From assembly GCA_013265495.1 (NCBI GenBank), contig MU057718.1, positions 1 to 64,000 on the forward strand: a stretch of DNA of 64,000 nt. Direction: 5' to 3'. Shown one piece after another: positions 1 through 57,390 of the stretch. Numbering within the stretch: the stretch's first letter is position 1; each line of letters opens with the position of its first letter. Made by a program: the position numbers and the translations under genes. This stretch comes from Vicugna vicugna (taxonomy: Eukaryota). The notes beneath the pieces are model-generated. The model saw only the letters and a program-made list of their open reading frames with translations, was not told the DNA's origin and ran no database searches.

Positions 1-249
1 CGGGGGGCGGGGCGGTGGGGTATTAGCCCTGGGACAGAGGGAAGAGGAACAGAAGAGTTAAAAATAAATCCAGTCCATCTCTTCTTTCACGATTTCTTGA
101 AAAGTTATCTTGGTGCTAGTCAGTGCACAGTGAATAAAAACCAAATAATTGTTCCAAACTTTCTATCTACAAGTTGGCCACTCTGCAGACAAAAAGTTCA
201 AATCATCCTCATGATCAGTGAAACTCAAGGGATGCATTTACAGCCTACT

Positions 250-2460
250 GATAAATGAAGAGGTACAGAGGGTGAGGTTTCAACCATCTAGTCAGAGTTC
301 CAGAAGGAGAAGGGGAGAGAGAGAATGGAGGCCATTATTTGAGGTTATAATATTTCAAATATTTGTGCAATAACACTTAAGAATTGTACAGAATTCTATT
401 TACAGGCTATCATCTGGGTGTTTGAGGTGCTTGTCTTTCTTGGGTTGCCACTGCTTCAATGAACAAAGTTGGAGATACGCATTTTTTAGAGAACCTTGAA
501 ATTCAACATTGTAAAATTTATTTGACTACTTAGATTTTACAATTGTACCTCTTTTCCACTTGAAAACTTAATTCCTAATGACATTAAAAGGAACCACAGT
601 AACTTACTCATTTTATTTCAACTTACTGATATCTACCTACCCACACACAAATACTAATACTTCAACATAGCCATATTCATAATACTTAAATAATGAGTTT
701 AATATGTGAAATTTAAGATTTATCTAAAGGTTTTTTTTTAACTGCAGGCTATACATTACTAGCAACAGAGCCAAAATATTGTAGGTTTAGTGCACAAATA
801 TGATTCCTCGTAGTGGGGTTATGCCACCAACTTTATACATAGTTAGATTAAGTTTCATCTCATTTTCAATTTTAATAATTGTTATATTTGGTTATTTTAT
901 TTATTTCACTTTGAGTTACGTAAAATATATACATGATTCCAAGTTCAAAAGTATAAAGCAGAATTTTTACTTGCATCCACATGCTTGTTTTTAATTTTCT
1001 CGTATAATAAAGATGAAATATAACATTTTATGTTCATGCCATTGTATCTTTGGACAGATTATTAGAAATAGGATTCCTGAATTTATAAGATGACCGTGTG
1101 TATACTTTCATTAGGTATTGCAAAAATCCCCTCCATAGACTGGTACCATTTCTCATTCCCATCAGCAATGCTTGAGAATGCATCATTATTTAGAGGCTGG
1201 CCAACAGAATATGTTGTCAGACATTTCATGTTTTGATAATTTGGTAGCTGAATAATGTTCTTGCAGTGTATTATTTTGAAATCCTTTATTATAAGGATTT
1301 ATATATAATAAAGGATTTCTAAATAGGTTTAAGCTTTTCCCATATATTTAAGGGTCACATTTATTTATTTTTATGTGAAAATACTACATAAATATCATTA
1401 ATCTTTCTATTAATTTGTTGGCCATTTTCTTCTCAATTTTTGGAAGTTTTAACAGAATTGTAAAAGAATTAACTTTAGGCCGAACGAATGTTAGTCTAGC
1501 CAGGGAGTCTGAAATAGAACAAAGGAAAGGAAATTAAAGAAAGACATCCATGAACAAAAGCAAGTAAACACTATTCAAGTCACACTTCATAGTAATAAAA
1601 TGTCTTGTGATTAAATAAAATACAATTTTAAAACACGAAAACAGCAAAAGGGTTGGAGTGGTAAATGCATTGACATTGATCTAAGGTCTTTGTTAGCTAA
1701 AAGGAAGCAGAAGATTGAATTAAGTTTACACGTTGAAATGTTAACAATGCTTAATATAAATTATAGGTTAACCATTAAACAAACAGAGTGTGTAATTTTG
1801 AATTTAGTGGAAGGCAATATAAAACTGTTCAATCCCCAGTACCTCCATTAACAAAACAAACAAAAATCTTTTTTAAAAGTCCATAAAAAATAGACGTATT
1901 TGAACAAGTAAAACTTGATAATATTTACTGCCCAAATGCCCTCAGTGATGGAATTCTAAAGGTTATACTTCACAGAAATAAACTCATCTCAGCTGAAGAT
2001 TTGAGGGAAGCAAGCAATCGAGAATAAAAGCAAACATCTGTTTATAAAACAGGAATGACAGTGTCAACTTTCTTAACATTCAAAATTCAAGATAAAACTA
2101 AAATATGCAATCGGTTGTGAAGTAACAATGATCATTAAAACTATATTGAAATACATTCGTATCAATGAATTTTATATTTAAACTAAAATATAAATTAAAT
2201 CTTACGATAGAAAATATAATAAAGTACTAATAAGTGGTTGGCAAAATTATGTCTGTCAAATATAAAGAAAAATAATACTGAAAATGCGTAAGTAGTATCA
2301 AGACAAAGGAGATACTTAACAAAACAAAGGGAAACGTGCATGACGATGAAAGGCACACTTTTCTAAGAAATAAACTTGCATGAACAAACAATATAGCAGA
2401 CAAATAATGCAGAAACAATGACCATGAAAGAACAGATAAAAAATGAAATTATAAAGAAAT
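250..2460. mobile_element. Highly decayed ancient L1 (L1ME-like) fragments, mixed orientation
   Basis: L1 ORF1-like 'catctagtcagagttccagaaggagaa...ttatttgag' at about 285-345; antisense L1 3' motif 'ccatttctcattcccatcagcaatg' at about 1146-1170; A-rich L1-like text to about 2460. Boundaries approximate. Confidence 0.45.
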
Positions 2461-3720: not shown

Positions 3721-4239
3721 NNNNNNNNNNNNNNNNNNNNNNNNNNNNNNNNNNNNNNNNNNNNNNNNNNNNNNNNNNNNNNNNNNNNNNNNNNNNNNNN
3801 NNNNNNNNNNNNNNNNNNNNNNNNNNNNNNNNNNNNNNNNNNNNNNNNNNNNNNNNNNNNNNNNNNNNNNNNNNNNNNNNNNNNNNNNNNNNNNNNNNNN
3901 NNNNNNNNNNNNNNNNNNNNNNNNNNNNNNNNNNNNNNNNNNNNNNNNNNNNNNNNNNNNNNNNNNNNNNNNNNNNNNNNNNNNNNNNNNNNNNNNNNNN
4001 NNNNNNNNNNNNNNNNNNNNNNNNNNNNNNNNNNNNNNNNNNNNNNNNNNNNNNNNNNNNNNNNNNNNNNNNNNNNNNNNNNNNNNNNNNNNNNNNNNNN
4101 NNNNNNNNNNNNNNNNNNNNNNNNNNNNNNNNNNNNNNNNNNNNNNNNNNNNNNNNNNNNNNNNNNNNNNNNNNNNNNNNNNNNNNNNNNNNNNNNNNNN
4201 NNNNNNNNNNNNNNNNNNNNNNNNNNNNNNNNNNNNNNN
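3721..4239. other. Assembly gap (519 N) inside the tandem array
   Basis: Run of N; both flanks are array sequence. Confidence 0.99.
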
Positions 4240-5029
4240 GCCGCCGCCGCCGCCGCAGTTCTCTGTCCGCCGCCCGCCTCCGTCCGCCGCCGCCGCCGCA
4301 CCCTGACAGCAAAGCCTCGCCTCTCAGGAGCAGACTGACCGCCAGACGGGCACCCCGCGAACATGGGGAAGCAGAGGCCGCCCCCAGGACAACACACGGG
4401 GTAGACAGGAGCAAGTTGGCTGGCTCCCAGGAGCACACCTCCTCCACGCCGCCCGCTGCTGCCGCCGCTCGCCGTCCGCCGCCGCACGCCTCTGTCCGAG
4501 GCCGCCCGCCATAACCGCAACCGCCACCGCCCGCCGCTGCCCCGCACCCTGACAGCAAGGCCTCGCCTCCCAGGAGCAGACTGACCGCCAGACGTGCACC
4601 CCGCGAACATGCGGAAGCAGAGGCCGCCCCAGGCCGCGGGGGAATCAGTAACAAATCCAGGAGTTCACAAGCGCAACCCCCTTCCCACCGCAGCTCCGCG
4701 ACAGCACCGCACCCGCCTCGCGGGGGCAGGCCTTGACCTGAGGGCCGGTCGGAAGTGCTCCCGGCTCCGGCAGGCGCCCTCCCACCTCCCGGGGCTGCAT
4801 TCGCTTGCCCAAACCCTGCTACAAGCTGCAGCGAAGAATCGGACTTCAGGAGCTACTAACGTGGGGTGGGGGGCACCACGAACCACGGCGGCCGCCCGCA
4901 CTCGCCTCAGGGTCCTGACTGGCCGCGCGGCTGGGGCCTCACCCACGCACCCCCAACCCGTGAGCCTCTCCAAACGCGCAGCCCAGGCCCCACCCGCCGG
5001 CTCCCCGACCTGCGCGCCCCCACCAGCGC

Positions 5030-5220
5030 CCCCTTACCTGCCCGGCGGCCGCAGAGGAGGCGACGGCAGGCGGTAGCCCAGTCCCCAGACCGCCTTGTTC
5101 CTGGGGACCCGCTGCAGGAGCGCCCAGCTTCCCCAAGCTCCGGGCAGTTCAGGCGCCCGCGCAGGCGCATTCACGCGTGCGTGCGCGCCCCTCCTCCTCC
5201 CGCCGGAAGCGCGGACCCTC
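5030..5220 (-). promoter_or_regulatory. CpG-island promoter / first-exon-like module in the last array copy
   Basis: Minus-strand donor CAG|GTAAG ('cttacctg', 5033-5040); NRF1-type GCGCCTGCGC at 5159-5168; ETS-type CCGGAAG at about 5202-5208; GC boxes at about 5300-5345. Parent gene not recognised. Confidence 0.5.
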
Positions 5221-8200
5221 GTGCTGGGGCTCCTGTTGCTAGGGATGTGGCGAGTGGGGCCGATCGGAACCGATCGGGGCTCGCGGGCCAAGCGGGGACG
5301 GGGGGCGGGGCGGCGAGCAGGGAGGGTAGGCTGGGCGGGCGGGGCTGTGGGGCCGGCCCACACCGTTGACCCTCCCGCCGAGTCTGCATACCCACTGTCC
5401 TGAGTCCTGGGAACCTGCGGGTTAGTGTTTAGGATATAAGGAGTTTAGTGGTGAAAATACAAGCAAAAGAAGTAAAACTTCATCCGGCTCATTAGATATA
5501 TACATAATATTCTTGGCCCATGTATGTATATGTTTATGGGCCAGGAGTTTGCAGACTATCATTGTAACTATGAGGAACGTTAAAAATTAAGAAAGAAAGA
5601 AAAGTATAAAGGTGTACCTAATAATGACTGGGCTTCCTTGGAAAGGGAACAGAGATCTGGAGACAGCGACAGTCTCCAAAAACACATGAGAAAACGTTTA
5701 CTTTTGTATATGTTGTTTCCTTCTGTACCTGTACTGTATGTAAAATTAAGGAAGAAAGGAAGCAAAAATAAAAGAGAAAAAAAGGAAGGAGAAAAGAAAG
5801 GAATCTGGCCATTTATTCTTTAAATATATAGCTAGTATTATCTCCTGTGAGCCAGAGATCTTTCAGAACCCCTCTTAGGACTCAAAGACACCGAAATGGC
5901 AGTTCTCTTCCAAATGCTCCTAATCCAGTATCTCTGTAGCTTTATAACAGTAAAGATGATCTGAAGCAGAGACAAATCAACTCCAAAATCTAAATGCATC
6001 CAAGGTATACCTGTAACAAATTATATATTTGCATATATATTATATATATAACATATATAAGCATACATGTAGATATATACTCAGACATAATATATATGTA
6101 GATATTTTTTAAAGAGATATATCCCCTAAAGTTTCTTCAGAACACTGTATTCCTTTAGTATGATTATCTTGGAAAAGACCTCCAGGCTCTAATTAAATAT
6201 CCAGGGCATTCCCAGGAGAACTCCATTACAAACTTCAATCTAAAGGGTAAGAGATCCTAAGCCCCACTTTTCCTAGGATTTCTGGTACTAGGGTTTTCAT
6301 TACTTGAGAACAAACTGATAAGTCAGCCACCAAAGCTTTTTTTGAATTGCCTTGAATGTAACCCAAAGAGCCCATAGATCTATTCACTCCATTGTCTAAC
6401 TGTAACATTTTGTCTGTTATGTGCCAGGTTCTTGGTGAACAGCTGATCTGCCTAACTGAATAGTAGAACAAATTTGCCTTCTGTCAACTTATGCACTAGA
6501 GTCAAATGGACTCAAAGTCTATCTTTCCTGAGTCTCAGGTGTCATAGCAAGGAAAAAACAAGAGCAAAAATCCATCTACTCCCACTTTTCAGCACTCCTG
6601 GCACTATATACAAAAGAACTCAATATTAAGAGACCTTGTTTCTTATAATCCATTATTGTCAATATCTTCTTCTAATGAAAGATGGAAAGTTGATACCAGA
6701 AACATTTCTATAACTTTATACATTTGCTATTTTTAAGCTTTATTGATTGTATCCTATTTTCAAGATTGTAAAATGACCTGAACCTTTCAAAAGATTCAAA
6801 ATTAAAAAGCAACTATAGATATCTCATTTATTTTTCATTTAAAAGTATCTTTTCTTCTTCAGCTTAAGATTTCCTTTCTTTATGCTTTATTAGCTAAACA
6901 CACACACAAACACACAAACACAAATATTATGAAGCAATATCTGTGTGTATATTTTGTAATAATGAGAGCAATTTAATTATCCACAGTAATTGAATGAAAA
7001 TGTTTAATTCTTAAAAAATTGTATTAACTCAAAAGGCAAGTCTTTTTCTTTTACATTATATCTTTTTGACCCAGGGAATGTCATTTAACCATTATTACTC
7101 AACATATTAGTAATTTATTCTTTGACTTTTAAAATCATATTAATAAAATAATTATTTATTAACTCATGAAAGTGTTTTAGGTACCATGAAGTTTCAAATA
7201 ATATAGTTTTCCTGGAAAGAATATACATTTTAAAGATAAAATCCCTGTCCAAAGAGGTATTTTGATATTTGATACACAATCAATAGCACATAAAGTTACT
7301 TGGATGTTTATACATTTTTAAAATGATATTTTAAGTGGAAACATTGCAGAAGCATTTTCCTTGTTTCTCATTAAGAATTTTGAAATTTTTCTATCTAGAG
7401 GTAGATGCTTAATTACTGATTATTATTCAATCAATATGTTCTTATACAACCACACACAAAAGTTCACTTTTCCAATTTTCTATCATATGAACCCAGGTGT
7501 GAATTTCTTTAGCTGGAAATAATTTTATAAAGCATCAGAAAATTGTTTAAGATCATTTAATGTTACATTAAGATTGGACCACATATCTAAATAAGATGCT
7601 GGTGGAAATTAACTCTATCTAAGTTTTACATGCTATTAATGAAGTAAATAAAGCACCATGGTAGAGTCTTTTATACATTGTGTGTTGTTGTCTATTGTGC
7701 TGCACAAAATTTAAGTTGTGGATTCAGTCCACTTTCTTCTATTATTTAAAAATTCAAGAAAGAATGTCATAAAAATACATATGCCATTCTTTCTAATTAA
7801 AACTATGCATATTTCATTAAGACGTTCTTATGACTTGCCTGGATTGCATGTTATGACACTCTTAACTGAGAAGGAAAGGCCAAGCAGATGACACAGCACA
7901 CTTAAACATTATCCTCTGTGGATCTGCCCACATTAATCGTGCTCTTTATGAACCAAGAAGACATTCTATAATATTAGTTATTGTGGCAGTTTGAGAATAC
8001 TATAAAAAAGTGAATTATTAGGCTTGCCTATCTTTGGAGAAAAATTATTTTATTCCAATAAGAAGCATAAACACAAAATGATACTGACTTTCCTGTCCGC
8101 GGTAACCCCACCCCCACCATCTTAGCAGGCCCTCTCTTTTGGGGGAAGGATTAAATTATCTTATTAGTGCATTTATTATTATCTTTTATACATTCAATTC

Positions 8201-11580: not shown

Positions 11581-11739
11581 TTTTAATTTTATTTATTTTT
11601 ATTTTTTTAAACTTTTTTGGCAGGGAGAGGTAATTAGGTCTATTTATTTTTATTTATGAACAGACGTACTAGGGACTGAACCCAGGACCTCGCGCTTGCT
11701 AAGCACACACTATACTCCTGAGCTATATACCCTCCTCCC
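11581..11739 (-). mobile_element. Camelid tRNA-derived SINE (Vic-1-like) with TSD
   Basis: Antisense tRNA-like head 'gggactgaacccaggacctcgcgcttgctaagcacacactatactcctgagctatataccc' and a T-rich tail. TSD 'aacaaaatctgtttt' at 11566-11580 and 11740-11754; L1-endonuclease-like TTTT/AA site. Confidence 0.85.
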
Positions 11740-14614: not shown

Positions 14615-14716
14615 TTCATTTGTTTGTTTGTTTGTTTGATAGAGGCACTGGGGATTGAACCCAGGACCTCGTGCATGCTGAACATGCACTCTACCACTGA
14701 GCTCCACCCTTCCCGC
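14615..14716 (-). mobile_element. Camelid tRNA-derived SINE (Vic-1-like)
   Basis: 'ggggattgaacccaggacctcgtgcatgctgaacatgcactctaccactgagct' with a (TTTG)n tail. Imperfect TSD 'tcagggctacgttta' (14600) versus 'tcaggactatgttta' (14717). Confidence 0.85.
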
Positions 14717-17173: not shown

Positions 17174-18110
17174 AAACAGTTCTTTTTTTTCTGCCCTCAC
17201 CCACTTTCCTGAACCAGCCATGAAAGTAAACCAATCATATGCAGTTTTCTCTCTAATATTCCTGTTATGTGGCTATTTTTGCTAATTCTCTCCAGAACAC
17301 TCAGAATCACTTAACTCAGTAATGTACTGTTTTTCTATAAATGTTAAAATACAGATCTGAGAAATTAAAGACCTATTTGTTTACTTATGAAACATATAAC
17401 AGGGATTTTTTTTTAATCAAACAAAAAAAAAAATCGCTTCCATGCAGGGAAACCACTGATTAAGTCCAGTGTTTGACTTCTTACAAAATGAGTCATCCAG
17501 TTGCCACAAATTCCCTTGTGGGAAAAATGGGTAAAAGGCTTCAAATATGTGGAGAATGCCGTCAAAGACATATATTGAAATAAACATACTAGAAAGGTGA
17601 TGATTTTTTTCAAGTAAATATGACAACCCCATTAAAATGCAACACACGATTTTTTGCATAAAGAAAACCTAAGATGAAATAGATGCCTTAGATAAAATAC
17701 TTACATATACAAATCATAAAACCCACTATGGTTAGTAACCTTTATGGCTTTGAAGAACTAGGTATTTACATATCCTTCTTTCTGCATGTGCGTGTGCGTA
17801 TGTGTGTTTTGTATATATTTTTAACAGTTGACAGCTGTTTTAGAGCATACAGAGATGCCAAGCTGAATGAGGGTCTTGATTTAAAAATAAAACATTACTA
17901 CAAATATAGCAGAAATTAAAGAAATAGAAAAAAAATTGTGTAATATTATGGCAAAATTTTTGAAAAGTTAGGCAAAATGGATGAATTCTAAGAAAACTAA
18001 AACTTACCAAGAGTTACCCAAAACAAAGTAGACAGTATAACTACATATATAATCATTAAAGAAATTGAGTAAGCAGTTTAAAATCTCCCTCCCTTCAAAA
18101 CAAGAAGAAA

Positions 18111-19130: not shown

Positions 19131-19719
19131 AATAAGAGTCTTGACATCTGAGCAAAGATAAGCAATTGTTACATCCAAAGTGGAAGAAATGAGCATGGAA
19201 ATGTCCTGGAGGCTGGGCCATATCTATTAATTACATTCCATAACCCTCCAGCCTTATCTAACACAATTAACCTTATTACATACAAGTAGACACAAGTTCA
19301 TGGAGGTTAAGTTACTTGCCTAACTTCACCCAGCCTGTTAGTAACAGACATATGATATGATCAAATATAAGCAAATTTTGGTTTCAAGGTCCATGCTTAT
19401 TATTGTACTAAATGATTTATTTAAATAGTACTAAAAATTCAGATTTTGAGACTAGAAAGAGAGCATGTGTCAGTATGGTGACACTCACCAATATTGACAA
19501 TTGATCATTCTTTGTCTTTCCTCAAGTGAGTGATAGTAAAAACATATATAGACTAATAAACCTAATGAGTTCTTTAAATGAACTTTTTATTTTTGAATAA
19601 TTTGGGATTCACAGAAAAACATATAAAGATAGTACAAATATTTTGCTTATATACCTCACTAATTTTTCTTTAATTTACATTATTATGGTTATTGTTAAAC
19701 TAAGAAACTAAAAAAATAC

Positions 19720-20882
19720 AGATAGAAAAAAAGAAACACACACTAACAATATCATAAAAGATAGAGGGGATAATACTGTAGATCTCATAGACATTAATGA
19801 TACTTAGTTGTGAAAAAATAAATTCTTCCCTCTAAGGTGGAGAAAAAGGTAGGAAGTTGACTCTCCCCATTCTTATGTACAAATTACTAAAATTCCTAGT
19901 TAACACAGTAAGGCAGGAGAAAGAAGGCACATAGACTGGAAAGAATTTAACTGTCCCTATGTGAAGATTACATGAATTTTCTACATATAACATACAAAAG
20001 ACTCTGAACAAAAATGAACAAAAAACCCATAAATTTTCTAGAAGTTAGAAGTGAGTAAGCAAGCTCATAGAATGCAAGGTTAACACAAAAATGAATTGAA
20101 AATTTATATAATAGCAATGAACTACCGAAGAATAACAAAAAAAAAAACTTACAATAGTGCCACAAAAATCTAAAAACTAAGGTATAAATGTAGCCAAACA
20201 AATGTAAAATCTTTATGCTGAAATCTTCAAAAAAAAAAAAACAGCTATTTAAATAAATCAGAGAAAAAGTTTGCAAATTATAAATTAAGCTGAGAACCTC
20301 TTCCAGAATATCAAAAAAGAAACCCTTAAAATTCAATAATTAAAAAAAACTAGTTTTTAAAAATGAACAAAATACTTAACAAAAAAATTTATACATGCAA
20401 TTAAGCACTAGAAAATATACTCAGACTCAATTGTCATTAGATAAAAATTAAGACATCAATAAAATGACATTTTAAACCTATTAAAATGGATTTTAAAAAT
20501 GAATAGTACCAAATGCTGGTACAATTTCAGAGCCACTGGAAAGTTCCTACATAGCTGAGGGGAATGTAAAATGGTAGATACACTTTGGAGTACAGTCTGG
20601 CAGTTTCTTATAAAGTTATACAATATAACCTAATAACCCAGTTTGTATTACTCAATAATTTACCTTTACACAAAAAAATCTTTATGCCAATGCTTATAGA
20701 GACTTTATGTATTATTGCCAAAAACTAGAAACCCAAATTTTTCTCAGCTGTAGAACTGACATCTATAATATTTGATAAAACACTACTCAGTAATAAAAAG
20801 GATTGAACTACTACTGATACACACAGCAACATAAATTAATTTTAAATGTATGAGCAAAGTAAAGAAGCCAGAATAAAAGGTG
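19720..20882 (+). mobile_element. Old decayed L1 ORF2/3' fragments
   Basis: 'agttagaagtgagtaagcaagctcatagaatgcaaggttaacacaaaa', 'gggaatgtaaaatggtagatacactttggag', 'actactcagtaataaaaagg'. Confidence 0.7.
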
Positions 20883-21088
20883 ACACATCATTAGACAATG
20901 GAGGCAGTGGGAAAACATATTATCACAATAGCTTTAAAATGTGAAGTATCCACCTTGAGTGATTAGCTCAGCTTGTCTTGGCATTGGGAAAAAAAATCAT
21001 CACCTTTATCTTGGTCAGAATGGCCATTACCAAAAAAGTCTACAAATAAATGTTGGCAAGGATGTGGAGAAAAGGGAACCCTTGTACA
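20883..21088. repeat. Mosaic junction built from short copies of distant sequence
   Basis: 20883-20920 is the reverse complement of 50629-50666 (38/38). 20918-20932 matches 48490-48504 (14/15). 20933-21014 matches 48648-48729 (78/82). An L1 ORF2 piece of about 75 bp follows. Confidence 0.88.
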
Positions 21089-23869
21089 TAGAAAATGGGC
21101 TCCAAATAATCTAACAAATGAATGATAAAGTGAGCCTAAGAAACCATCTCTGAAGATTAGGCAGAATTTCAATTACACATAAAGCTAAAATGAAAAACTC
21201 TCTTAAAATTGCATGGCAATAAATATGTTCAATTAAGCACAACTATAACTAAACATAGTTTGGGTCATCATGTTCTAGGAATAGAAGGGGCTTACGATTG
21301 CCCAGTTCAGATTGCCCTCATTTTATACACGAGGATCATATCAATTGCTTGAATAAATTGCTGAGGTAGCTAGGTAAAATGACAGTAGCAGGACAAAGTT
21401 TTCTGATCCCCACTGTAGTGTTCTTTCAATCTAATATTGGATTTATTCCACAATCACTGCAAACAGAAATTAAAATAAACTATTTAAGGGGCTTAAATTA
21501 CATTAATGAAAATTTCAAATCTTTTCACAAAAAAACCTGATAGCTGTGTTATTTTATTTAGCATTCAATTTAATATTAATATTTAATAATTAATTTCTTC
21601 TAAAATTTAAAATCAGAGATTCATCATAAAAGAAACAAAAGGTAGATTATGCTTTCTTTATCATTTAATAAACCTTCTCTATCAAGACAATGAAAAGACA
21701 GACTGAAATCATATAAACAGATTGCTATGACTGAAATGCTTGCACAATTCCTCCAAAACAAACAAAACAAAACCACAAAAGCCATAATACTTCTCAAGCT
21801 AAGTAAACTGTAATACTGTCAAAATGGTTTGAAGTAGGTCATCTAAAAAAAGTAACCCTGAAGTGACACAGTAACATCACTGCAACAGCCATCAGGTGAA
21901 AAATGGTTTTTGATTAGTATTGTGAAAAAAAGCACTCGTTTGACATTTTCTTCCCCAGTGTCAGTCACAACACCAGTCTGAATGCAAGCTTATGCATTTA
22001 ATTTGAGGAAACTACTCAGCCAATTAAACTTGAAATACTAGCAAGATATTCTTAAAGCATGATAGGTGTGTGAAGCATCACACACAAAAAGAGCTTTAAG
22101 TGTATATATTAAACACTCTCCAAGTATAAGGAGCACTGACGCTATCAGCATCAGAGTAAGACGCTATCAGCATCCACCAGTAAGGAAATAGTCACAGCTC
22201 TATTTGGCAAATTTACATGCAAAGGGGTGGGGGGAAGGGGAAAATGAAGCAACAGAAACAAATATTAGGTCAATCTGAAAAAGACGCTTGGATCTGATAT
22301 TTGGTTTACTATTTCCAGAACATAAAGAGCTAACGTATTAAAACAAATGGGTAAAGGGTAGAATATTTTAATTTAGAATGTATAAACAGAACGAACTTTT
22401 CAAATCTGCAAGCCTTTGCTTATGCTTTATAAACTGTAACCTCTCTTAAGCAAATTGGTATTAGGACTCACTCGTTCACTTTGTTATAATATTGTAGATG
22501 ATAGATTTTATAGAAGCTGATGTGAATCCTTCCAAGAGGGAATTAAAGTAAATGTTACCTACATGTCACATGTCCACTCTCCAGATGAAATAAGAATTTT
22601 TGAAGACTCAGAAGAGGCACAGTGTAGGCAAGTGCTTCCATGTAAATTTCCATGACGTTCTGGGAGCTGGACATACAAGCATCTCATGCTCCTCTGTTAC
22701 TAAGAATAAAGAATAGTCTTTAAAAGGCTTGTGATAGTTTTACTGAGGACATCAGTAAAAGTTTCAACTTAAAATTTACTTGTTTTCCTACTCCATTTCC
22801 TCTGAGTTCAGGGAACACAACTAACAGGGCACATTAGAATGTAACCTTTGAACGTAACAGTGTGAAACATCACTTCCTGGGCAGAGATGGCACTCCAGGA
22901 ACAGTCAGTCCCTGTTAAAGAGAACACACACTCGACACTGCTCATTAGTGCTGGCGCACTCTTCTCCATGCCCTCATCTGTCCTGAAGATTGTTTAAAAA
23001 TCCGAGTTATTAGTCTTTATTTGGGAAAGGATCTGTTTAATATCTTTAAGAGGAGAAATCATTCATCCATACACTCTACACTGGAGCGTGATAATTCCTA
23101 CTCCCCATGCAAGTTACTGACAACCTCCACGAACTTAGAGGCTACAAATCAGGAAGCGGGCAGCTCCCGTGCAACCCTGTTGATTTCTGTTTACAACCTA
23201 TCCAGCTGAGAACGTTAGCCAGTCAGGGGAGAAACTAGGTGATGGGTCAGATAGTAGGAAAACGTAACAGCTTAAAGACAGAAAATAGCACAATGACAAA
23301 TTAAAGCACCCTGTGGTTATAAAACACGGGTTGAATATAAAATTAACCTTTAAAAAATTTAATATTCCTGAATGTTCACTTCATTTTAATTTGAACCTTC
23401 TGTGAAACACTAAAAGAAAAATTAAAATGATATTCGACTAAAGATTATGATTTTTTAAATTAAACAGAAATTAAAATTTTGTAAATAAAAAGTTGAAAGT
23501 ATAGGTTTCTACAATTATAAAAGTCACAAGGTAAGAAAATGAAGCAAAATTCTGAACTTTCTTAGATTTATTTAACCTAAAATCGTGACATAAAATCTAT
23601 AACAGTTAATCTCAAACATCATCCAGCATAAAATATCTTTGATGTGTTTCCTAAGAAACTCTGACACCATTCACCAGCGTGGAATTCAGTAGGCCAGTAG
23701 GGCCCAAAGGCCATCTAATAGGTTCCCTGTATCTACACATGTATTTTTCCTCATTAAGAAAACCGTTTTCCCTGAATAACACATCCCAGACCATAAACAC
23801 TTCTAATTTCAACAGTCTTCATAAAAAGGCTTTTATTCATTCATTCAGTAGTCATTCTTTCAGGCACTG

Positions 23870-24450
23870 CTCTAAGCGAAGAGGTCCTTAGCTTTCACAG
23901 AGCTTAGATTTTAGTGGGGAAAGACGTACAAGAAACAAAAAACAGTATCAGACGACAATGAGACTATGAAGATATCTGAAACAGAACATCCTGACAGAAA
24001 GGGACTTGATGACTTATTTAGATTTGAGTGGTCAAGGACCCCAACTCTGAGAAGATAACATTTGCCCAGATGACAAAATAGAGCCAGCTGAGTAAGACTG
24101 GAGGGAAAACCATTTTGAGCAGAAGAAACCCTAAATTCCAAATTAACTTGGAAAGTTTTAGGAATAGAAAAAAAGACAAATGTGCCTTACATACATTATG
24201 GACAATAGAGCATTTAGTAGAACGTGAGATCTGAGAGGAAGGTAGGAGCCAGATCACCTAGTGCTTGATAAACTTGGATAAGGAGTTTGGATCTTATTCT
24301 AAATAGAATGAGAAAGCACTAGAGGATTTTAAGAGTAGAAGTCGTACAATATGACTTACCATCTAGGAACTGGATTGTAGGAGAGCAAAGCTCGGAGCAG
24401 GAGGAGCAGTTAGGAAGCCAGTGCCATAGCTCACATGAGAGATGATGACA
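23870..24450 (-). mobile_element. L2 relic
   Basis: 'agatctgagaggaaggtaggagccagatcacctagtgcttgataaacttggataaggagtttggatcttattct' is typical antisense L2. Confidence 0.55.
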
Positions 24451-25219
24451 GCGTGTCAGGCTGTGGTCAGGTCCACCCCGTAATAAGCCCATAGTAAGTG
24501 GACATAAGGTGAAAACCCACAGGCGCTGCAGGGCAGGCTCTGATCAAGTGAGAGGGGCCCACTGCGGGGGGAGCAAGACCCTCACGGCCAGGAAGCCAGG
24601 ACCGTAGCCTGTCAGACATCGCATTGCACTTGGGCTACAGATCTCATCAAACTTCAACAGAACCTCCCTGAAACATAGAGTAAGTAGACGACCTACACTC
24701 TTTCCCGTCTTGAAAATTACCTACCAGGAATTTTTCTTTTAACCTCGCCAGGGAAAAGTAGGGCCTTCCGTGGAGATTTGAACATAATTGTATTTATTAA
24801 TCCCAACAACCAGACAAAGCCAAAGAAAGCTAAAATTTCAGAAAACTTGAAGATGGTAGAGAAAAAGAATAAAAGAAAGACTTAGGTTAGCAGGTCCCAA
24901 TTACTCCTTAAGCACTCCTTTTGGTTCAACCTGTGCACAAATTGACAATGGCTAACTGAATATACATAGCTGGCACTCAAGAATATTTGCTGAATGAATT
25001 GCCCTTCCCATGGCAAATAACTAACTCACTAACTAAATAACTAACTAACTAATTAACTAAATAAATAAATAAGGAATAAGACCGAGACAAAGGAATTCTC
25101 TAGGAACCATTCCCTTCAGGCTACTTTTGTAAAATAACTAGTTCAGCTCTACTAATTTGTAATCTGTGACCTTTCAAACTGAAGCTATAGTCAGTGCTTT
25201 TAAAAGGCTATTATGATTA

Positions 25220-25795: not shown

Positions 25796-27739
25796 TTACA
25801 TGCTTTTAAGTATTAATACTGAAATAATTAATTTACTAATTACCAATTCTCTTTCATTAAAGCAAGTCGCCTCCTCTGCTGGCTGTATCTTTTACCTTCT
25901 CTAGTTGATCTGTGTATTTAGCTGTAATACTATATAATTTTCATAAAAATAAACCCATAATTCATCTTTATCTAAGACTCAACCCAATTTCTGAGAGTTT
26001 GCTATATTTTAATAAAAAGCAAACGATTTTATAACTTACTCATTATAAGCTCGTATTGTGTAACAAATTCACACACACACACTCTTTGTATAGAAAGTTT
26101 CTATCTCATCCTTTTGCTCAACTTTGGGCTAAAAGTTGGCTATTGCTGCCAATATTTTCACAGCCTACACATGTTTCTTTTCAACATATGCTTTCTATTT
26201 AAGTTGCAAAGAATAGTACACAATGATGAATTTTTAAAAGCATATTTAGGCAGAAGATGACTCTGTATAGATAATAATCATCATAATCTAATTTCAAATG
26301 TTTTTCCACAATGTTTCTTTTGCTTTGCCTTTAACCAGTATGTGAAGTCTTTGCCTTTTAATATAATTATATCCCTCAAAAAGAAAATGAATGCATACTA
26401 GTATACTAATGTAACATCAAGTTGGAAACACAAATTGTAAGAAAGTAAGTAAGTAAAGTAAGAAAAGTAAGAAATTAAAGAAAGAAAGTAAGAAACACAA
26501 CACTACATGATCGTATTGATTATATGAAATTGGGCCACTGACATTATGGTAAATAATATCCAGGAAAATGTTCATCTATAATCACTTAATTATATATTTA
26601 TATATATAAAACATCCTGTGTCACTGCAAACTCTGTTATATGATCTCATTCTGAAAGAGAGTATTATAAATATGAGAAAGGGGTTAGGGCTAAGCCAAAA
26701 GCAAAAAAGTTCTTTTGACTTTCATGCTGTGAATTCTTAAACATAACACTGTATTCATTTTTTGCGTAAATTTATATAACTTATATAAATGTTTGATTTT
26801 AAAACCTAAGAATGGCATCACCAGTATAGTTCAATAGCCCATCTAGTCTGACATCCTGTCTTAGACAGGGACCAATGGTGGCTGCCTCACAGGATAGCAC
26901 AAACACATAACATAATGTATATAATTATGCACAAGTGCTCCAGATGGTAGTAAGATTATATTCTAAAAAAAAAAATGAAAGCAAATCCCAACCCCCATTC
27001 CTCCCCTATTCTAGCGTCAAGCGTCAACTGTTATTGAAAAGCCTGCGCATCTTTAGAAATTTTCTCCTCAAGCAACTTGCTCACTCCAGGAAAGTGGTAT
27101 CTATTTATGTTTCCAAACATGAATTTTTTTTAGGAATAAAAACTATAAGATAGGCAAATAAACTTTACTATAGGTAAATAAACTTTGATAACTTACTTTT
27201 ATTGCCCACCAAGGCAACCAGAGGCTGAGTTTCTGACTCCTAACTCACTTTCTTCACGACAGGATACCAATCTTCTAAGTTCTCAAAGCTTTGATAATTT
27301 GTAGTGTCATTTACCAAGAGGATTCCCTGTCACAAAAGAGTTACAGAATATTTGGAACACAATACTTGAAAAAATATTAATACCAAATGTGCTTAAGCAA
27401 TACATACTACTAGTCGTCTAGCAGAGTGTCAAAATACAAACGTGGACTGTTTGTATCTGACTTCAGTTTAGTTCTTAGCAGACAGATAACACTAAATATT
27501 TTCATTTAAGATAAATCCAGCAATTAAAATACAATGCAAGCTAAACTCTGTAAGTGGCTTCCCAATGAAATGTCTGGGACATGTTCGGTAAGTTACACTA
27601 AATATAAGAAAAGGTGGGTCATATCACAAAGGTGGAAAAAAACTGTAAGGTCCACAAGTCTGCCTGTCACTTTCAGGAGGTCAAACATTTAAACTTTCCA
27701 ATAAATAACCATCGGCTCTGCTCTCTTTTTAAATATTTT

Positions 27740-33940: not shown

Positions 33941-35883
33941 AGCCACCGACTCCCAGGGCCTCGACTCCCCAGCGCCAGCACACCGAAGCCAGACCTCTAA
34001 GTGCTCACCTCTTCGGGAGACTGTAACATAAGTGCCCTCAAGGCATCAGTCAATCCAGACCTCTTGACTCCTTCCAGAAAACTGTCAGAAAGTATAACTC
34101 CCTCAGAAACGCAACACATGTTGGCAATGACTGAAGTCTGAGAAGAATCTACTGGAAACCGCTAGAAATGATTGTCTCTTGGCAGTCCGGTAGCCGTCTA
34201 CACCCATCACTGTGTCTCATGTCCCTGATACCCTCTTCATCACCGATCTGTCCACCATTTGTCCTTCTCCTATGTCTTCACCCCCATACTGCCCTGTGCT
34301 TCCTCTTCCTAATTTATTCTCCAACTGCTTTTCTTCTTCCTAAATCTTTTTGCCATGACTTGTGGAAATCAGACTTCAAGTTTAATAAGTCCTTCTATAT
34401 CCTCAAATTCTTCATTAAAAACTGCCTCCATTTTCTATGCCTCAATTTCACTTTCCCCCCTGGAATTCCAAGATGATACCTCTTCTGCTTATAAACCTCA
34501 AGACTTTTAATAAATTTTGCATAATATTATATAGTACTTTATTTTCATCTATTTAACTTATCACCATAGCTAATAAGCATGAGTCAGTAAATCAAATGGA
34601 TACCATTTTCAAAGGAATAACTGATAGCAGTCTTGAAGGAACAAACACTGTGGCAACAGAACCACAGTATAAGGTATTTCACAAATTTAGTTCTTAAATT
34701 TAACAGATACAGTACACAGAATTAACCTTCCCCCAAAATGAGAGGTTCCCCTCTTCCAAAACGCAGATATTTCCCCCCGATTTGTACAATAATCTTCTTT
34801 AGTTTTTAATTACATACAGAAATGAATCAAATCATAAAGCTATATAATAACCATAATAACATATACTTTGCTGTGTAAGTGCAATCTGTAAGAAGGAAGA
34901 CTAATGCAAGCGAGGTCTGTAAGTACAATCAGTTATAAGTTGGCAAACATCCAACCAAAAAATTCATAGTGAAAGACAGCAGAGAGTCTCAGGCAGTGCG
35001 ACTTTGAGACGTGCTCTCTCCCAGCTGTCAGACAGGCAAATACCCTTTTGTTGGTGGTTAACAGGGTGGCTCATGTGTGGGGGACGCTGGCACAAAACAG
35101 TAGCCATGTTCTACCTCACAAATGGCTACACTTCACTGAGTTTATGCTCAGGGCAGTGTTTGCAAACCACTTAGATTCCAGGATGGAAGGAGCTACAAAA
35201 ATGAAACACCCTAGTCCTCCTCTGAGGTTGGTTTTTAGCCTCTGTCAGCCGCAGGCTACAGGGCACTGAGCACTGCGCACTGTGTGTTCGCTCATAACCG
35301 CGATGAAAAATAGGCGACAACATCTTTCTGAAGACTCCTAGAAAATTTTAAGTTAATTTAAAATCTGGGAATTTAACTGGGACATACTTCAATTCTTAGA
35401 ACTAGTTCTTGACAAAATACCTCATTAATTCTTTCTTGGGGGTCAATTCAGTTTTCTTTTAACCAACATTATTCAATACACTATCACTAAAATTTAATGC
35501 TACTGGCAGGAAAATAAGTGAAGAGGGTAAAATAATCAGTTTTATTTGACTCTAAGTTAATTCCAAGCCTACGAATAGATTTCTTTCTACATGATAAGAA
35601 ATGCCTTAAAAAAAAAAGAGAGAGATCTATAGCTTAATAGCCCAGATACATATAATTCTTTCTATACACATTACATAAGTTAGAGAACCTAAATTAAAAT
35701 CCTAAATAATACATTATATTGATGTCTTCAAAACAGCTTGTCAAAACACTTCTGAAAGATTTCTATCCCATAGCATGTGCACAAAAATCCAAAATATTCA
35801 CAAGAGAGGCAATATACAGCATCCACACCACCCATGATGCCAGTCCCTCATGGGTCCCCCAACAAATCTTTGAACCACATTAC

Positions 35884-36083
35884 CTGCAATATCAGTGAGG
35901 CCAAGCACTATTCCTCTGGTTACTCTAGCGGTCTGTGGAGGAAAAGGCTTATTCCCATCATCCTCTCTTTCGGACCGTCAGCCCCTGATGTCGCTGTGGT
36001 CAGGCCCAAACTGATTAAATCTCTTCAACCCAGAGCAGATATTTCCAGAAATGGCAGCCAAAAATTAAATGATGATGTCAGAC
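35884..36083 (-). other. Exon-like 200-bp unique segment
   Basis: Acceptor 'ttctcatatcgcag|GTC' and donor 'CAG|gtaatg'; more GC-rich than its flanks; stops in all frames (UTR, non-coding or pseudo-exon). Confidence 0.3.
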
Positions 36084-48135: not shown

Positions 48136-48139
48136 GTCC

Positions 48140-50345
<2,206 letters not shown>

Positions 50346-51594
50346 TTCCCCTTTCCTCTTTTTAAATTAGCAGTTTTATTTATTTTTCCACAGGACTTTG
50401 GTATCATTCATGCTTTCCAAACTCTTCCAAGATTTCTAACAGTAGTTTCTGAGGTCACTTGCTTTTAGACTGAAGCACTTCTATTAGCATTTCTTTTAAG
50501 ATAAGTCTGCTAGCAATAAATTCTACTTTTTGTTTGTTTTATAAGTTTGGATGTATTAATTTTTTTTATTTTTGAAATATGGTTTTGTTGGATTTAAGAT
50601 TCTTGGTTGAGAGTTTTTAAAGTTTTGCATATGTTTTCCCACTGCCTCCATTGTCTAATGATGTGTGAACTGTTATTCTGAATGGGGTTTCCCCCATATG
50701 GAATACAAATTCAACTGTAGCCTGCAGGTGGATCAAAAATAGATGAGAACCTAGGGAAACAATTAGTATTAAAAAAAAAAAAGTTGGGAGAGGGTTGTGG
50801 GTTAAATATATGTAGGAAAAATGGACTTAATCTGGTAGCAGAAAAACCGTGTCATCCTCATTTCTTGGTGCTATATTCTAAATCAGAGAAAAGTGAAAAT
50901 CTCTGCAGAGGTATTTCTTTTTTTTTCTCACAATCATCTGTCTTTAGTTTTATTTCAAAAGAGATAGCTATGCAAAATGCTTTTTATGTTTATTTTTCTA
51001 TCCAAAGTAAGAGTCTTAATTGACTGTTGCTTCTAAACTAACTTCTTACTGATATTCTTAGACAATCCTTCGAGAAATAAAATTTTCATCACATATTTGT
51101 TATTATAGAAAAATCATTATAGTTCTAATTAGTATATAAATGGTTTTCAAAGTTGTCTTCTTTATAATACAAAATAATTTACTTTTCCCATTAAAATTTT
51201 TATTTCAGAAAATATCAAACTGATTAGATCTTTGAAAGGCTTGAACATTATGGCAGCATCTGTATTTTCCTTTTCCTCACGGGAGACAAGGGGAAGAAGA
51301 AATAAAGTGGGCAACAGAGCTTGCTCTTACTTGCATTCTTCTGTGAATGTAACTATAGTCCTTTCTTTCCCCAAGTCTTTGGTCTTGTCTCCTCTTTCTT
51401 CTTTTTTTAAATTGATTGGCTGGTTAGTTATTCAGTGTATTTATGTCAAAATAATTGTTCCCTTAACTGGAGGGGAAAGAGAAGAATGAAACCATTTATT
51501 CATATAACAAGAACTTACAAAACAAGTTTAATAAAATTTTAGTAAAAGTCCAATATGATTTTTAAAGATGACTATCAGCATTATTCTAAAATAC

Positions 51595-54016: not shown

Positions 54017-54190
54017 TAAAAACTCTCAACCAAGAATCTTAAGTCCAACAAAACCAAATGATAGTCTCTAAATAGAATTCTGTACAATTCTTAAGTGTTA
54101 TTGCACAAATATTTGAAATATTATAACCTCAAATAATGGCCTCCATTCTCTCCCTCCCCTTCTCCTTCTGGAACTCTGACTAGATGGTTG
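54017..54190 (-). repeat. Mosaic junction: inverted copies of 50580-50619 and 281-417
   Basis: 54017-54056 is the reverse complement of 50580-50619 (39/40). 54054-54190 is the reverse complement of 281-417, with about 120 bp carrying one mismatch plus a slightly diverged end. Confidence 0.9.
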
Positions 54191-56551
54191 TGTTTGGGGG
54201 AAAGAAAGACACAACCACTGACTACACCCAGCACCCTGCCCACCATCAGGTGCAACCACCAACCTGAGCTGAGGGGTCTGCCTGTCCTCACCAGGAGTGC
54301 CCGGGGCACCCTGGGGTTCGTCTGGATGAGCAGGAAGCTGGCATCCCGGGGCAGTGGGCACGGCCCGCTCTCTGTGGACATCATCAGGCCTGGTGACCAA
54401 GGACCGTTCCAAAAAGGAGGCACACTGTGTGAGATGTTTGGTGGAACAGTGCTGCACCGGCCGACCTCTTGCAGCAGGGAAGCTTCTGGATGCGCCACCA
54501 ACGGTCAGCCCAGTACTCAGCTCTGAGAAGGGCCAGGGCCCATGGCCCCTACAGGAGCCAGGCCTGCCAGGAAGGGGGTGAGGTCTCCCCACTCCAGCTT
54601 CCCAGAGACGGGACTGGTGACCGGGTCCCCCACGGGCAGGACACAGCATCGCTGGACAGAGCAAGAGGGACACTGGCAAAACAGGGCAGTGGCCGCAGCC
54701 AGCCTGTCCTGTGGCCAGCGGCCTGAGTCACCTTCAGCAGGAGCTCCCCTGCACTGGGCAGTGGGGTGAGAGGCGAGCCCCGGGAGGAGGGAGCCCGACA
54801 CCCTGGCTTCCCGGCCCGAGACCCCTGGGCCTCTCCTGTCTTGTCCCTGGATGGGGAGGGGCAGGCCCCACTGCCGGGTGGTGGCAGGGGAGGGGGGGGC
54901 GTGCTACAGCCAGAGGTCACGCCAGGCCTGGCTTGGGAAGCTGTGCATCCTTTCTAAACTTCTGGAGCCCATGAACTTTCTGCGCTGTTTCTCTTTGGTT
55001 TGGGTTTTTGTTGGGAGACTCTGGCTTGGCATGTTTTGGGTTCTTTAGACAATAAAGCATCCTTTACCATTCCATAGTTCCCTGGGAACCGGTCTGTGCT
55101 GCGGCCCCTCCCCTGGTGACTCCACAGCCTGGCCGCCCTCCACACCCGTCCAGCCCCAGGCCCCAGCTCTCCCCCCACCACACCCATCCCTGGGGTTCCC
55201 TGGGGGCGTGGAGTCAGCAGCAAGTCCCAGGGGTCGGACGCCTGGTCAGCACGGCTGCTGTAACATGCTCCACAGTCGGGTTGGAACCAGAGAAATGATT
55301 GTCTCCCGTCCTGGAGCAGCACGTGCCAGGTCAAGGAGCGTGAAGGCCACTGTGCCCACCAGCTGCCAAGGCTGCAGGGACGGAGTCAGGACTCGGTCCT
55401 CCTGGGAGGCCAGACCCTGAGCTCCAGTCCCTCCTGGCGGTTCCATCTCAAAGGAACAGTCTCAGGTCCCGGGTTGTAGGAGACACAGCACTCCCCAGAG
55501 GGCAGACACAGGAGCCACAGCTGTCTGCCCTTCGCAGGAAACCCTCCAGGAAACGGAGGCCAGCACCTGGTCAGGGTTGGCTCTGCTGGGCGGTCCAGGC
55601 CAGCACTTCAGGAGAGCTCAGTCACCCACGGGACGCGGCCCCGGGTGGCTGGACATTGTCCAGGGGTCTGCGTGAGCCTTTCCGTGTGTCAGGGCAGAGG
55701 GGGCAAGATCAATGTGCCGAGTCTGTGGCTCCATGGCCCCAGGGGAGGCCAGCAGGACAGGCTCCTGGAGGGGAGCTGGGACCAGCACTGTGTCTCTGTC
55801 AGTAAAGCCACAGCACCCTAGGGCCATTGGAAAGGGCCATTCCAGCTTCCTGTGGGGACAGACAGACAGAAAGACAGAGAGACAGAGGAAGACAGAGAGT
55901 TTTATGCAGGAAAGGGACAGCTCGCTCCAGTGGGCTGTACAGCAAAGACGGTGAGGCCATGGGGCGGGCAGCCGGGTCCAGGAGCATCGCCGGCCCTCAG
56001 GGACCCTGCCAGGCGTGAGGACACCGGGCACCCTCTGCCTCGAGGGCTCTATCAGGGCTCCGGAAACCATCCTGGGGGTCTCCCCCACTCGCAATTTCTG
56101 TCACACGGAACACCTAACCAACAGGCTGAACCTGCCAATCGTCCCTGCAGCCTGCCCGGCCCCAGGCCCTACCCCTCACCTCCATCCCCTGGACCATGGA
56201 TCTGCCTCCAGCCAGACATTCCCATGGGGACACCAGGACGGTCGATACCGGCTGGCCCCACGGGTCCTTGAGGAGCACCAGTCCCAGGACAGCTGCCTCC
56301 CACCAGGCCTGAGGACCCCGTCCTGACCCTGGGGCAACACCAGGCCACAGCGCGTCCCCCATGCACAACCCCTCCTGGGCCCCTGGAAGCGAAGTGGCCG
56401 ACGCCTTCCCTTGAGCCCCTGTGTCAGCCCCAGTGTGAGCCTGAGGTCAGCCTCCTGCTGCTCCTGACCCCTAGGGGCCCTGCCCCGGGCAAGACCTCCG
56501 ACACACTCCTGTCAGTGTCTCACCTCTCCTACCCGCACCCCCATCCACATC

Positions 56552-56553
<2 letters not shown>

Positions 56554-56595
<42 letters not shown>
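56554..56595. repeat. (CA)n microsatellite
   Basis: Directly visible. Confidence 0.95.
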
Positions 56596-56597
<2 letters not shown>

Positions 56598-56709
56598 GGC
56601 TGCCACCCCACTGCGCTCCTGGGCCCCCACCAGGTCCCCCCTCCTCCCGCACTCCAAGGGGAACGTCTGTCAGTCTGAGCTTTGGATACCTGGATTGCTG
56701 TCCGTGTGC

Positions 56710-57390
56710 GGTGTCCGTGGATGTGGAGAAAAGAAACCCTTGTGCACTGTTGGTGAGAACATAAAATGGCATTACCGTCGTGCAAAACAGTTTGGAAGCC
56801 CCTCAAAGAAATTTCAGACACAACTACCACACTTGCAGCAATCTCACTGCTTAGAATAAACCCGAGTGAACATACAACAGGTCTTAAAGAGGCACTTGAA
56901 CACCCATTTCACAGCAACTCCGTTGACAATACCTACCACGAGGCAGGAACTCGAGTGTCCTTCCGTGGATGGACAGATGAGCACGATGTGGGCTGAGCAT
57001 ACAATGGAACGGTACTGCCGCTGAAGAAAGAAGAATATTGTGACGTGTGTGACAGCACGGGGGCACCTGGAGGACACCGGAACGCGTACCGTGAGCCTGG
57101 GGCAAGACAGTGAATCGTGTGCGATTCCACTTGTGTGAGCGATTAGGAGTGGCCGCATTCACAGAAAGAGAAAATACAGAAGTGGCTGCAGCCGGGGCAG
57201 AACGGGGGGTTATTGTGTACGGGCATAGGGTTTCACACGTAAAGACGGGGAGAGCTATGGAGACACAGGTGGTCGTGATTGCACTTTATGAATGTATCTA
57301 CTGTCCCCAAAACCCGGAGAAAGGGTTAACATGCCACACTTTCTTAGGGGCAAATCCTATTCTTTTACCACAGTGAAAAAAAAAAAGCCT
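56710..57390 (+). mobile_element. Old L1 3' end, GC-shifted
   Basis: 'ggatgtggagaaaagaaacccttgtgcactgttggtgagaacataaaatgg', 'atacaatggaac', A-tail at about 57376-57386. Confidence 0.7.

What the first reader, a model, noticed from the sequence alone, without database searches (positions are those of the whole stretch)
20883..21088. Junction assembled from 3-4 short genomic shards copied from 28-30 kb away
Seen: an old L1 stops abruptly and is followed by four pieces. These are a perfect 38-bp inverted copy of 50629-50666, 15 bp matching 48490-48504 (sharing 'tat' microhomology), 82 bp matching the HDGFL3-retrocopy 3'UTR at 48648-48729 (78/82), and an L1 piece of about 75 bp not traceable in the window. 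The 3'UTR is not a transposon, and 38/38 identity is too high for an ancient L1 family match. Inference: serial template switching (MMBIR/FoSTeS or polymerase-theta templated insertion) at a rearrangement breakpoint, using this locus or a paralog as donor.
Basis: partly seen in the sequence, partly recalled or inferred. Interest (0 to 1): 0.72.

Follow-up and report, generated by a model that had tools for sequence, protein, structure and literature searches.

The report
Fossil template-jump scar in camelids
Four short scraps of DNA, three matching one 2-kb spot about 28 kb away, are stitched into a seam of this camel-family genome, and a second seam 33 kb off holds the neighbouring scrap of the same spot, likely the inherited scar of one old replication accident of a kind already known from cancer cells and human genomic disorders.

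Summary
The shards are real. A (38/38, inverted), B (14/15) and C (78/82) match donors 28-30 kb away; D is an L1 piece with no close match in the window. Contigs from four organism labels carry A|B|C with no difference, so it is not an assembly error; the outer joins were not covered.

New here: a second junction at 54017-54190 holds two more shards. One comes from 9 bp beside A's donor, so four of five traced donors lie within 2.2 kb. Shard-donor divergence is a uniform 3.0% (9/300), far younger than the HDGFL3 retrocopy. The setting is a duplicon patchwork: a lone dead RAB28 exon, and an AT-to-GC step at the second junction.

Best reading (0.6): one germline rearrangement with serial template switching, resembling tandem-short-template jumps. 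Main rival (0.25): ligation of broken fragments. Not shown: that the flanks are non-syntenic. The scan noted the DNA right of the second junction before, and single templated scars in two other genomes, but not this junction. Known kind, unusually legible example, no sign of function.

The parts
20740..20882 (+). end of the left flank of junction 1: 3' part of an old L1, cut short
   Evidence: aligned with five in-window L1 3' ends; L1 label recalled
20869..20882 (+). 11/14 match to the donor just upstream of shard A (microhomeology, or the mutated start of a 52-bp shard A)
20883..20920 (-). shard A, inverted copy of 50629-50666, 38/38
20918..20932 (+). shard B, copy of 48490-48504, 14/15; 3-bp overlap with A, blunt join to C
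   Evidence: (chance 9/3000 in the donor zone)
20933..21014 (+). shard C, copy of 48648-48729 (HDGFL3 retrocopy 3' UTR), 78/82
   Evidence: first 33 bases covered
21014..21088 (+). shard D, L1 piece near the ORF2 3' end, donor not in the window
   Evidence: best 77-80%; position in L1 recalled
54017..54059 (-). shard E of junction 2, inverted copy of 50577-50619, 41/43; donor lies 9 bp from A's donor
54054..54190 (-). shard F of junction 2, inverted copy of 281-417, 133/137; overlaps E by 6 bases, 5 of which fit both donors
48490..50680 (.). donor hotspot (2191 bp) for A, B, C and E
48145..50340 (-). HDGFL3 processed pseudogene with frameshifts and stops; ends approximate
50360..50717 (-). old L1 ORF1 fragment holding the donors of A and E; a graph branch lies at or near its right end
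   Evidence: (profile positions 556-765, E 2.4e-4)
281..417 (+). donor of F; 278-353 matches an earlier part of L1 ORF1
   Evidence: profile positions 214-290, E 0.01 window-wide
27198..27326 (-). lone RAB28 exon (residues 88-130) with an in-frame stop; no other RAB28 exon in the window
54191..57000 (.).
   Evidence: note e1-7856110, not tested here

Best explanation
Two seams 33 kb apart carry six short pieces, four of which match one 2.2-kb spot that is still intact, and they were likely written in one germline rearrangement in a camelid ancestor when a broken DNA end repeatedly invaded that spot, copied 12-140 bases and jumped on. Shown: the matches, their clustering, their similar divergence, and the A|B|C joins in four organism labels. 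Inferred: that both seams arose in the same event; that the 11/14 match upstream of A primed the first switch; that the hotspot lay beside a break near 50717, with 281-417 as the other lip of one old L1 ORF1 broken and inverted there; that the event helped assemble a duplicon patchwork. The scar is predicted to have no function.
For: Four of five traced donors lie within 2191 bp (0.0007 under uniform placement in the window; 0.012 without B). Donors are retained and the shards are extra copies: the 38-nt and 83-nt records are exactly the unitigs predicted from the window; depth of the 38-nt record (21.1 and 31.9) is near the sum of its two neighbours (8.7+11.8 and 16.6+10.8), a hint only. Divergence is 9/300, homogeneous over five shards (p 0.47). 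Upstream 11/14 match: 15 of 200000 by chance; 17/20 somewhere in the hotspot: 11 of 1500. A|B 3 bp, E|F 5 of 6. Mixed orientations. F and A/E donors are successive, non-overlapping parts of L1 ORF1 on opposite strands, and the donor contig ends opposite 50747 in 3 of 4 runs where the window alone predicts no branch. Hotspots of 1-2 kb feeding several chains are described for TST jumps (bioRxiv 10.1101/835058, passages); microhomeology as a template-switch signature (PMC6902434, passages).
Against: No two donors overlap, and A and E donors abut with a 9-bp gap (0.9% by random placement), which is what fragmentation predicts. B|C is blunt. Shards are smaller (median about 59 bp) than TST insertions (median 183 bp). 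The 11/14 match can equally be a 52-bp shard with three clustered changes; the left flank's L1 signal does not decide this. The source of the DNA left of junction 1 was not identified, so a synteny break is not shown. The RAB28 exon differs at 4 of 43 residues, about 4% in DNA by the table, a mild hint that this duplicon is older than the shards (1.5% per copy). The F-donor match to ORF1 was below the shuffled maximum for three of four references in pairwise alignments and only E 0.01 with a profile.
Confidence: 0.6

Rival explanations
1. The shards are physical fragments of a second copy of the region (sister chromatid or fold-back product) that shattered near the break and were ligated into the two seams by end joining, as in chromothripsis.
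For: A and E donors abut without overlap (9-bp gap, 0.9% by chance); B and C are collinear, same strand, 143 bp apart; none of four hotspot donors overlaps another; B|C is blunt. 'Genomic shards' at junctions are described in tumours (PMC3753337, passages).
Against: The donors are still in place on the same molecule, so two copies must have contributed. The 11/14 upstream match at left|A points to annealing. Tight donor clustering was argued against random fragmentation in bioRxiv 10.1101/835058.
Confidence: 0.25
2. The two seams are separate events at different times, or the donors lay on a paralogous copy of the patchwork; the hotspot is simply a place that broke more than once.
For: The genome holds many duplicon mosaics (notes; PMC13751797 passages). 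With 300 bases the age test has little power (CI 1.4-5.6%). The RAB28 exon may be older.
Against: Independent events would rarely pick donors 9 bp apart on the same strand. No third copy of A appeared at 85% likeness in four runs, although the tool leaves some records out.
Confidence: 0.07
3. The seam is a break patched with L1-made cDNA: HDGFL3 mRNA pieces (B, C) and L1 RNA (D), perhaps during the insertion of the retrocopy.
For: B and C are mRNA-derived sequence and D is L1. B+C divergence (5/94) alone cannot exclude the parent mRNA as source (p 0.18-0.35).
Against: A and E come from the genomic flank about 240-340 bp outside the retrocopy, and F from 281-417. The retrocopy is about 85% identical in protein to a parent that is 173/175 between deer and gorilla, about 7% DNA drift; 9/300 is incompatible with that age (p 1e-10). 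B and C are antisense to the mRNA while D is sense to L1.
Confidence: 0.05
4. Assembly artefact or chance repeat-family matches.
For: The window has a 519-N gap at 3721-4239; A is 100% identical to its donor; the outer joins are not read-tested.
Against: A|B|C is in contigs of 4 of 4 runs; four of five shards differ from their donors; 38/38 has probability 0.31 at the pooled rate; 20 runs of 8 studies hold 78-88% of the sampled words of 19200-24500.
Confidence: 0.03

Closest known systems
Tandem Short Template (TST) jumps (Umbreit et al., bioRxiv 10.1101/835058; 11 passages read)
   Same: Chains of short insertions in tandem at a junction; donors cluster in a 1-3 kb hotspot that feeds more than one chain; microhomology at only some joins.
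   Different: Here germline and shared by four organism labels, not somatic; only 4+2 inserts; median about 59 bp against 183 bp; no overlapping donors; only one clear hotspot visible in 64 kb.
Chromoanasynthesis / complex insertions by FoSTeS-MMBIR (Gu et al. 2016, PMC5120786, passages; PMC6258378, passages; PMC6902434, passages)
   Same: Germline junctions with templated insertions, microhomology or microhomeology, some blunt joins, duplicated segments placed at a foreign site.
   Different: Those are de novo or familial patient events mapped against an unrearranged reference; this one is old (3% diverged) and its unrearranged state is not available here.
Chains and bridges of templated insertions in cancer (Li et al. 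2020, PMC7025897, passages)
   Same: Copy-and-paste templates strung together at one locus.
   Different: Somatic, templates large enough to show as copy-number segments and often on other chromosomes.
Mosaic new insertions at human-gibbon breaks of synteny (Girirajan et al. 2009, PMC2652201; title seen in a reference list; paper not held; content otherwise recalled)
   Same: Fixed evolutionary breakpoints filled with patchwork inserts.
   Different: Cannot compare in detail; a shared hotspot feeding two junctions is not something I could check there.
Pseudogene-rich repetitive blocks of camelids (PMC13751797, passages)
   Same: Same clade, fragments of unrelated genes in repeat-rich DNA.
   Different: The paper gives no base-level junctions in the passages seen and its main text has 0 hits for RAB28, HDGF, IGH; supplements not read.

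Membership tests
TST jumps | chain of short insertions in tandem at a junction | tested here: met
   4 pieces at junction 1, 2 at junction 2
TST jumps | donors cluster in a 1-3 kb hotspot with 4-8 insertions that form several chains | tested here: met
   4 donors in 2191 bp, two chains; one of the four (B) is weak alone
TST jumps | insert size around 150-200 bp | tested here: not met
   15, 38(52), 43, 75, 82, 137 bp against median 183 bp
TST jumps | insertions within a hotspot often overlap partly | tested here: not met
   0 overlaps among 4 donors; few pieces, so low power
TST jumps | several interconnected hotspots; origin in a broken bridge or micronucleus | not testable with these tools
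   F donor may be a second hotspot or the other lip of the first; D untraced; no whole genome
Chromoanasynthesis (FoSTeS/MMBIR) | templated insertions from more than one locus at junctions | tested here: met
   donors at 48.5-50.7 kb and 281-417, plus untraced D
Chromoanasynthesis (FoSTeS/MMBIR) | microhomology over 4 bp or microhomeology at joins | tested here: inconclusive
   left|A 11/14, E|F 5 of 6, A|B 3 bp, B|C 0; the other 4 of 8 joins cannot be scored without the ancestral flanks
Chromoanasynthesis (FoSTeS/MMBIR) | copy-number gains of the joined segments | tested here: inconclusive
   shards are extra copies; RAB28 exon is lone and broken but the intact gene of this genome was not seen
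Polymerase-theta templated insertion | template under about 10-20 bp, close to the break | tested here: not met
   12-137 bp pieces, 3.4-54 kb away in present coordinates against PMC11541566 passages
Chromothripsis shard ligation | fragments are moved, not copied (lost at origin) | tested here: not met
   all five traced donors are intact in the window; possible only with a second copy
Chromothripsis shard ligation | fragments do not overlap; blunt or very short-homology joins | tested here: met
   no overlap, 9-bp gap A/E, blunt B|C
Evolutionary break of synteny | flanks map to different places in an outgroup | not testable with these tools
   no mammalian genome held; left segment not identified

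The most novel reading that the evidence does not exclude
A single TST-jump-like catastrophe in a camelid germline, millions of years ago, built this duplicon patchwork in one step, joining a RAB28 fragment, an immunoglobulin-locus spacer copy and inverted local DNA, and it became shared across species. Shard-to-hotspot links would then be a general way to date and reconstruct how mosaic segmental duplications are assembled.
Probability: 0.3. Interest if true: 0.65.

Novelty: new member of a known kind. Interest (0 to 1): 0.42.

Why it matters
Mosaic segmental duplications are usually explained as stepwise, and their seams are rarely readable. Here two seams are tied together by neighbouring shards of one hotspot, which suggests that at least part of a mammalian duplicon patchwork formed in one burst by a process otherwise studied in tumours and patients. 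It makes a punctuated-versus-stepwise question testable in camelid long-read assemblies. The scar itself shows no sign of function, and templated inserts at breakpoints are well known.

Tried and rejected
No whole genome is held, so no genome-wide donor search and no synteny test. Contigs gave no cover at 20805-20868 in 4 of 4 runs; the tool leaves records out, so this is no evidence. Search for more shards at ten candidate junction zones found only the known matches, matches to other L1 copies and to the island repeats, and four 15-16-mers at background level (5 of 400 random positions reach 15). A 12-bp match at the end of D (21087-21098 vs 34428-34439) and an 18-bp A-rich match (20990-21007 vs 17593-17610) were treated as chance. 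Pfam on 150 reading frames left of junction 1 gave one sub-threshold hit; 55 selected frames, mostly to its right, gave PWWP in the retrocopy and eight frames with weak sub-threshold hits; these were the longer frames outside repeats, chosen from 359 candidates, not all of them. Rfam found two tRNA-like SINE heads only. The GC island at about 2480-5420 matched only a junk-looking Camelus ferus model, naming no gene. Donor peptides did not hit Pfam or PDB as L1 ORF1p; pairwise DNA alignment of the F donor was not clearly above shuffles. Earlier-finding look-ups by sequence and relatives were empty. Literature searches showed no report of this locus in their listings; subscription papers and supplements were not seen. 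Circular-intermediate duplication (PMC7450558, passages) was considered and set aside: it keeps orientation and leaves 1-27 bp scars.

Full report
Observation. B alone is weak (164 of 3000 random 15-mers hit somewhere in the window, 9 of 3000 in the donor zone), but it fills the gap between A and C exactly. The retrocopy is HDGFL3 (PWWP hit; 51 proteins, named ones HDGFL3).

Independent data. Twenty runs of eight studies and four organism labels hold 78-88% of the sampled words of 19200-24500. Four runs, one per label, were laid on 20805-20965. All four have a contig over 20891-20965 without a differing letter. By the tool's 31-letter rule B|C is bridged in 4 of 4 and A|B in 1 of 4. Two runs show a separate 38-nt record at exactly 20883-20920, and three show a donor contig whose loose end equals the window's 50681-50710. 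A k=31 graph built from the window alone predicts the same 38-nt and 83-nt pieces. The break at 20883 implies a second path entering there, which is indirect support for left|A; no contig covered that join. C|D, D|right flank and junction 2 are untested against reads.

A second junction. At 54017-54190 an L1 stops and is followed by E (reverse complement of 50577-50619, 41/43) and F (reverse complement of 281-417, 133/137); GC then steps from 0.31 to 0.58. E's donor lies 9 bp from A's donor on the same strand.

Joins. Left|A has 11 of 14 matches to the donor just upstream of the perfect block (15 of 200000 random 14-mers). That is either microhomeology or a 52-bp shard with three clustered changes; the L1 signal of the flank does not decide. 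A|B shares 3 bp, B|C is blunt, E|F shares 5 of 6. The other four joins cannot be scored.

Age. Non-overlapping shards differ from donors at 9 of 300 bases (3.0%, CI 1.4-5.6), homogeneously (p 0.47); 38/38 has probability 0.31 at that rate. The retrocopy has drifted about 7% by a protein-based calibration, so it is much older than the shards (p 1e-10). With a recalled mammalian neutral rate near 2e-9 per site per year, 1.5% per copy is roughly 3-14 million years.

Setting. A lone RAB28 exon with an in-frame stop lies at 27198-27326, 91% identical to mammalian RAB28, with no other RAB28 exon in the window. The GC island at about 2480-5420 is internally repeated and has a diverged relative in a Camelus ferus gene model. 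So the window looks like a duplicon patchwork, as noted for other pieces of this genome and for alpaca (PMC13751797, passages). A profile from three other ORF1 copies of the window places the F donor at positions 214-290 (plus strand, E 0.01) and the A/E donor at 556-765 (minus strand, E 2.4e-4). They could be two halves of one old L1 broken and inverted, with breaks near 417 and 50717. The donor contig ends opposite 50747 in three runs, where the window predicts no branch, which fits a boundary at 50717/50718 or a difference at 50748. This part is inference. I could not identify the source of the DNA left of junction 1, so a break of synteny at junction 1 is not shown.

Mechanism. I favour one germline rearrangement with serial template switching (0.6): donors retained, clustered, equally old, mixed in orientation, with annealing signs at some joins. 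Ligation of fragments of a second copy is the serious rival (0.25), because the donors never overlap and A and E abut (0.9% by random placement). Separate events or paralogous donors get 0.07, cDNA capture 0.05 (A, E and F are not mRNA sequence, and the ages differ), artefact 0.03. Classical polymerase-theta insertion fits poorly in size and distance (PMC11541566, passages), unless the donors lay at break ends during the event.

Comparison. It works like TST jumps (bioRxiv 10.1101/835058, passages: hotspots of 1-2 kb with 4-8 insertions forming several chains) but fails two of their features (size, overlap), so I do not file it there. It belongs to the wider class of templated-insertion junctions of complex rearrangements (PMC5120786, PMC6258378, PMC6902434, PMC7025897; passages; related threads in bioRxiv 10.1101/2022.02.20.480758, passages). 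Fixed evolutionary examples are known from gibbons (Girirajan 2009, title only; PMC2695003, passages), and a review discusses chromoanagenesis in evolution (PMC6988253, passages). Eight searches listed no paper on this locus; supplements and subscription papers were not seen. The labels camelid SINE, L1 subregions and the neutral rate are recalled.

Verdict. Real, shared by four organism labels, richer than first described, and of a known kind. Interest 0.42; the one-step patchwork reading (probability 0.3) would deserve 0.65.

Noticed in passing
window 54017-54190: Second shard junction (E and F) at a sharp AT-to-GC step; taken into the main finding.
   Followed up: yes
window 27198-27326 (-): Lone RAB28 exon with an in-frame stop and three other residue changes.
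   Followed up: yes
window about 2480-5420: GC-rich island in three or more nested, diverged repeats (88-93% alike) around a 519-N gap; a candidate first exon on the minus strand ends near 5036; a diverged relative exists in a Camelus ferus gene model, so it may be a multi-copy duplicon.
   Followed up: partly
window 50717-50748: Graph branch in three runs that the window does not explain: the DNA from about 50718 may be present at another locus or be a further junction.
   Followed up: partly
window about 33945: A long plus-strand L1 stops abruptly and is followed by about 500 bp of unexplained sequence with decayed reading frames; no shard or Pfam hit found.
   Followed up: partly
window 48134-48165: The poly(A) tail of the HDGFL3 retrocopy directly abuts the 5' start of an L1 on the same strand; target-site duplications were not worked out.
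   Followed up: no
window 35866-36083 (-) and 22563-22700 (-): Exon-like stretches bounded by AG and GT with no protein match; source gene unknown.
   Followed up: partly
window 11661-11732 and 14640-14711 (-): tRNA-like hits in Rfam, the heads of two SINE copies (camelid-type, recalled).
   Followed up: no
window about 52745 and 53370: Two more abrupt L1 ends between the hotspot and junction 2; no shards found there.
   Followed up: partly
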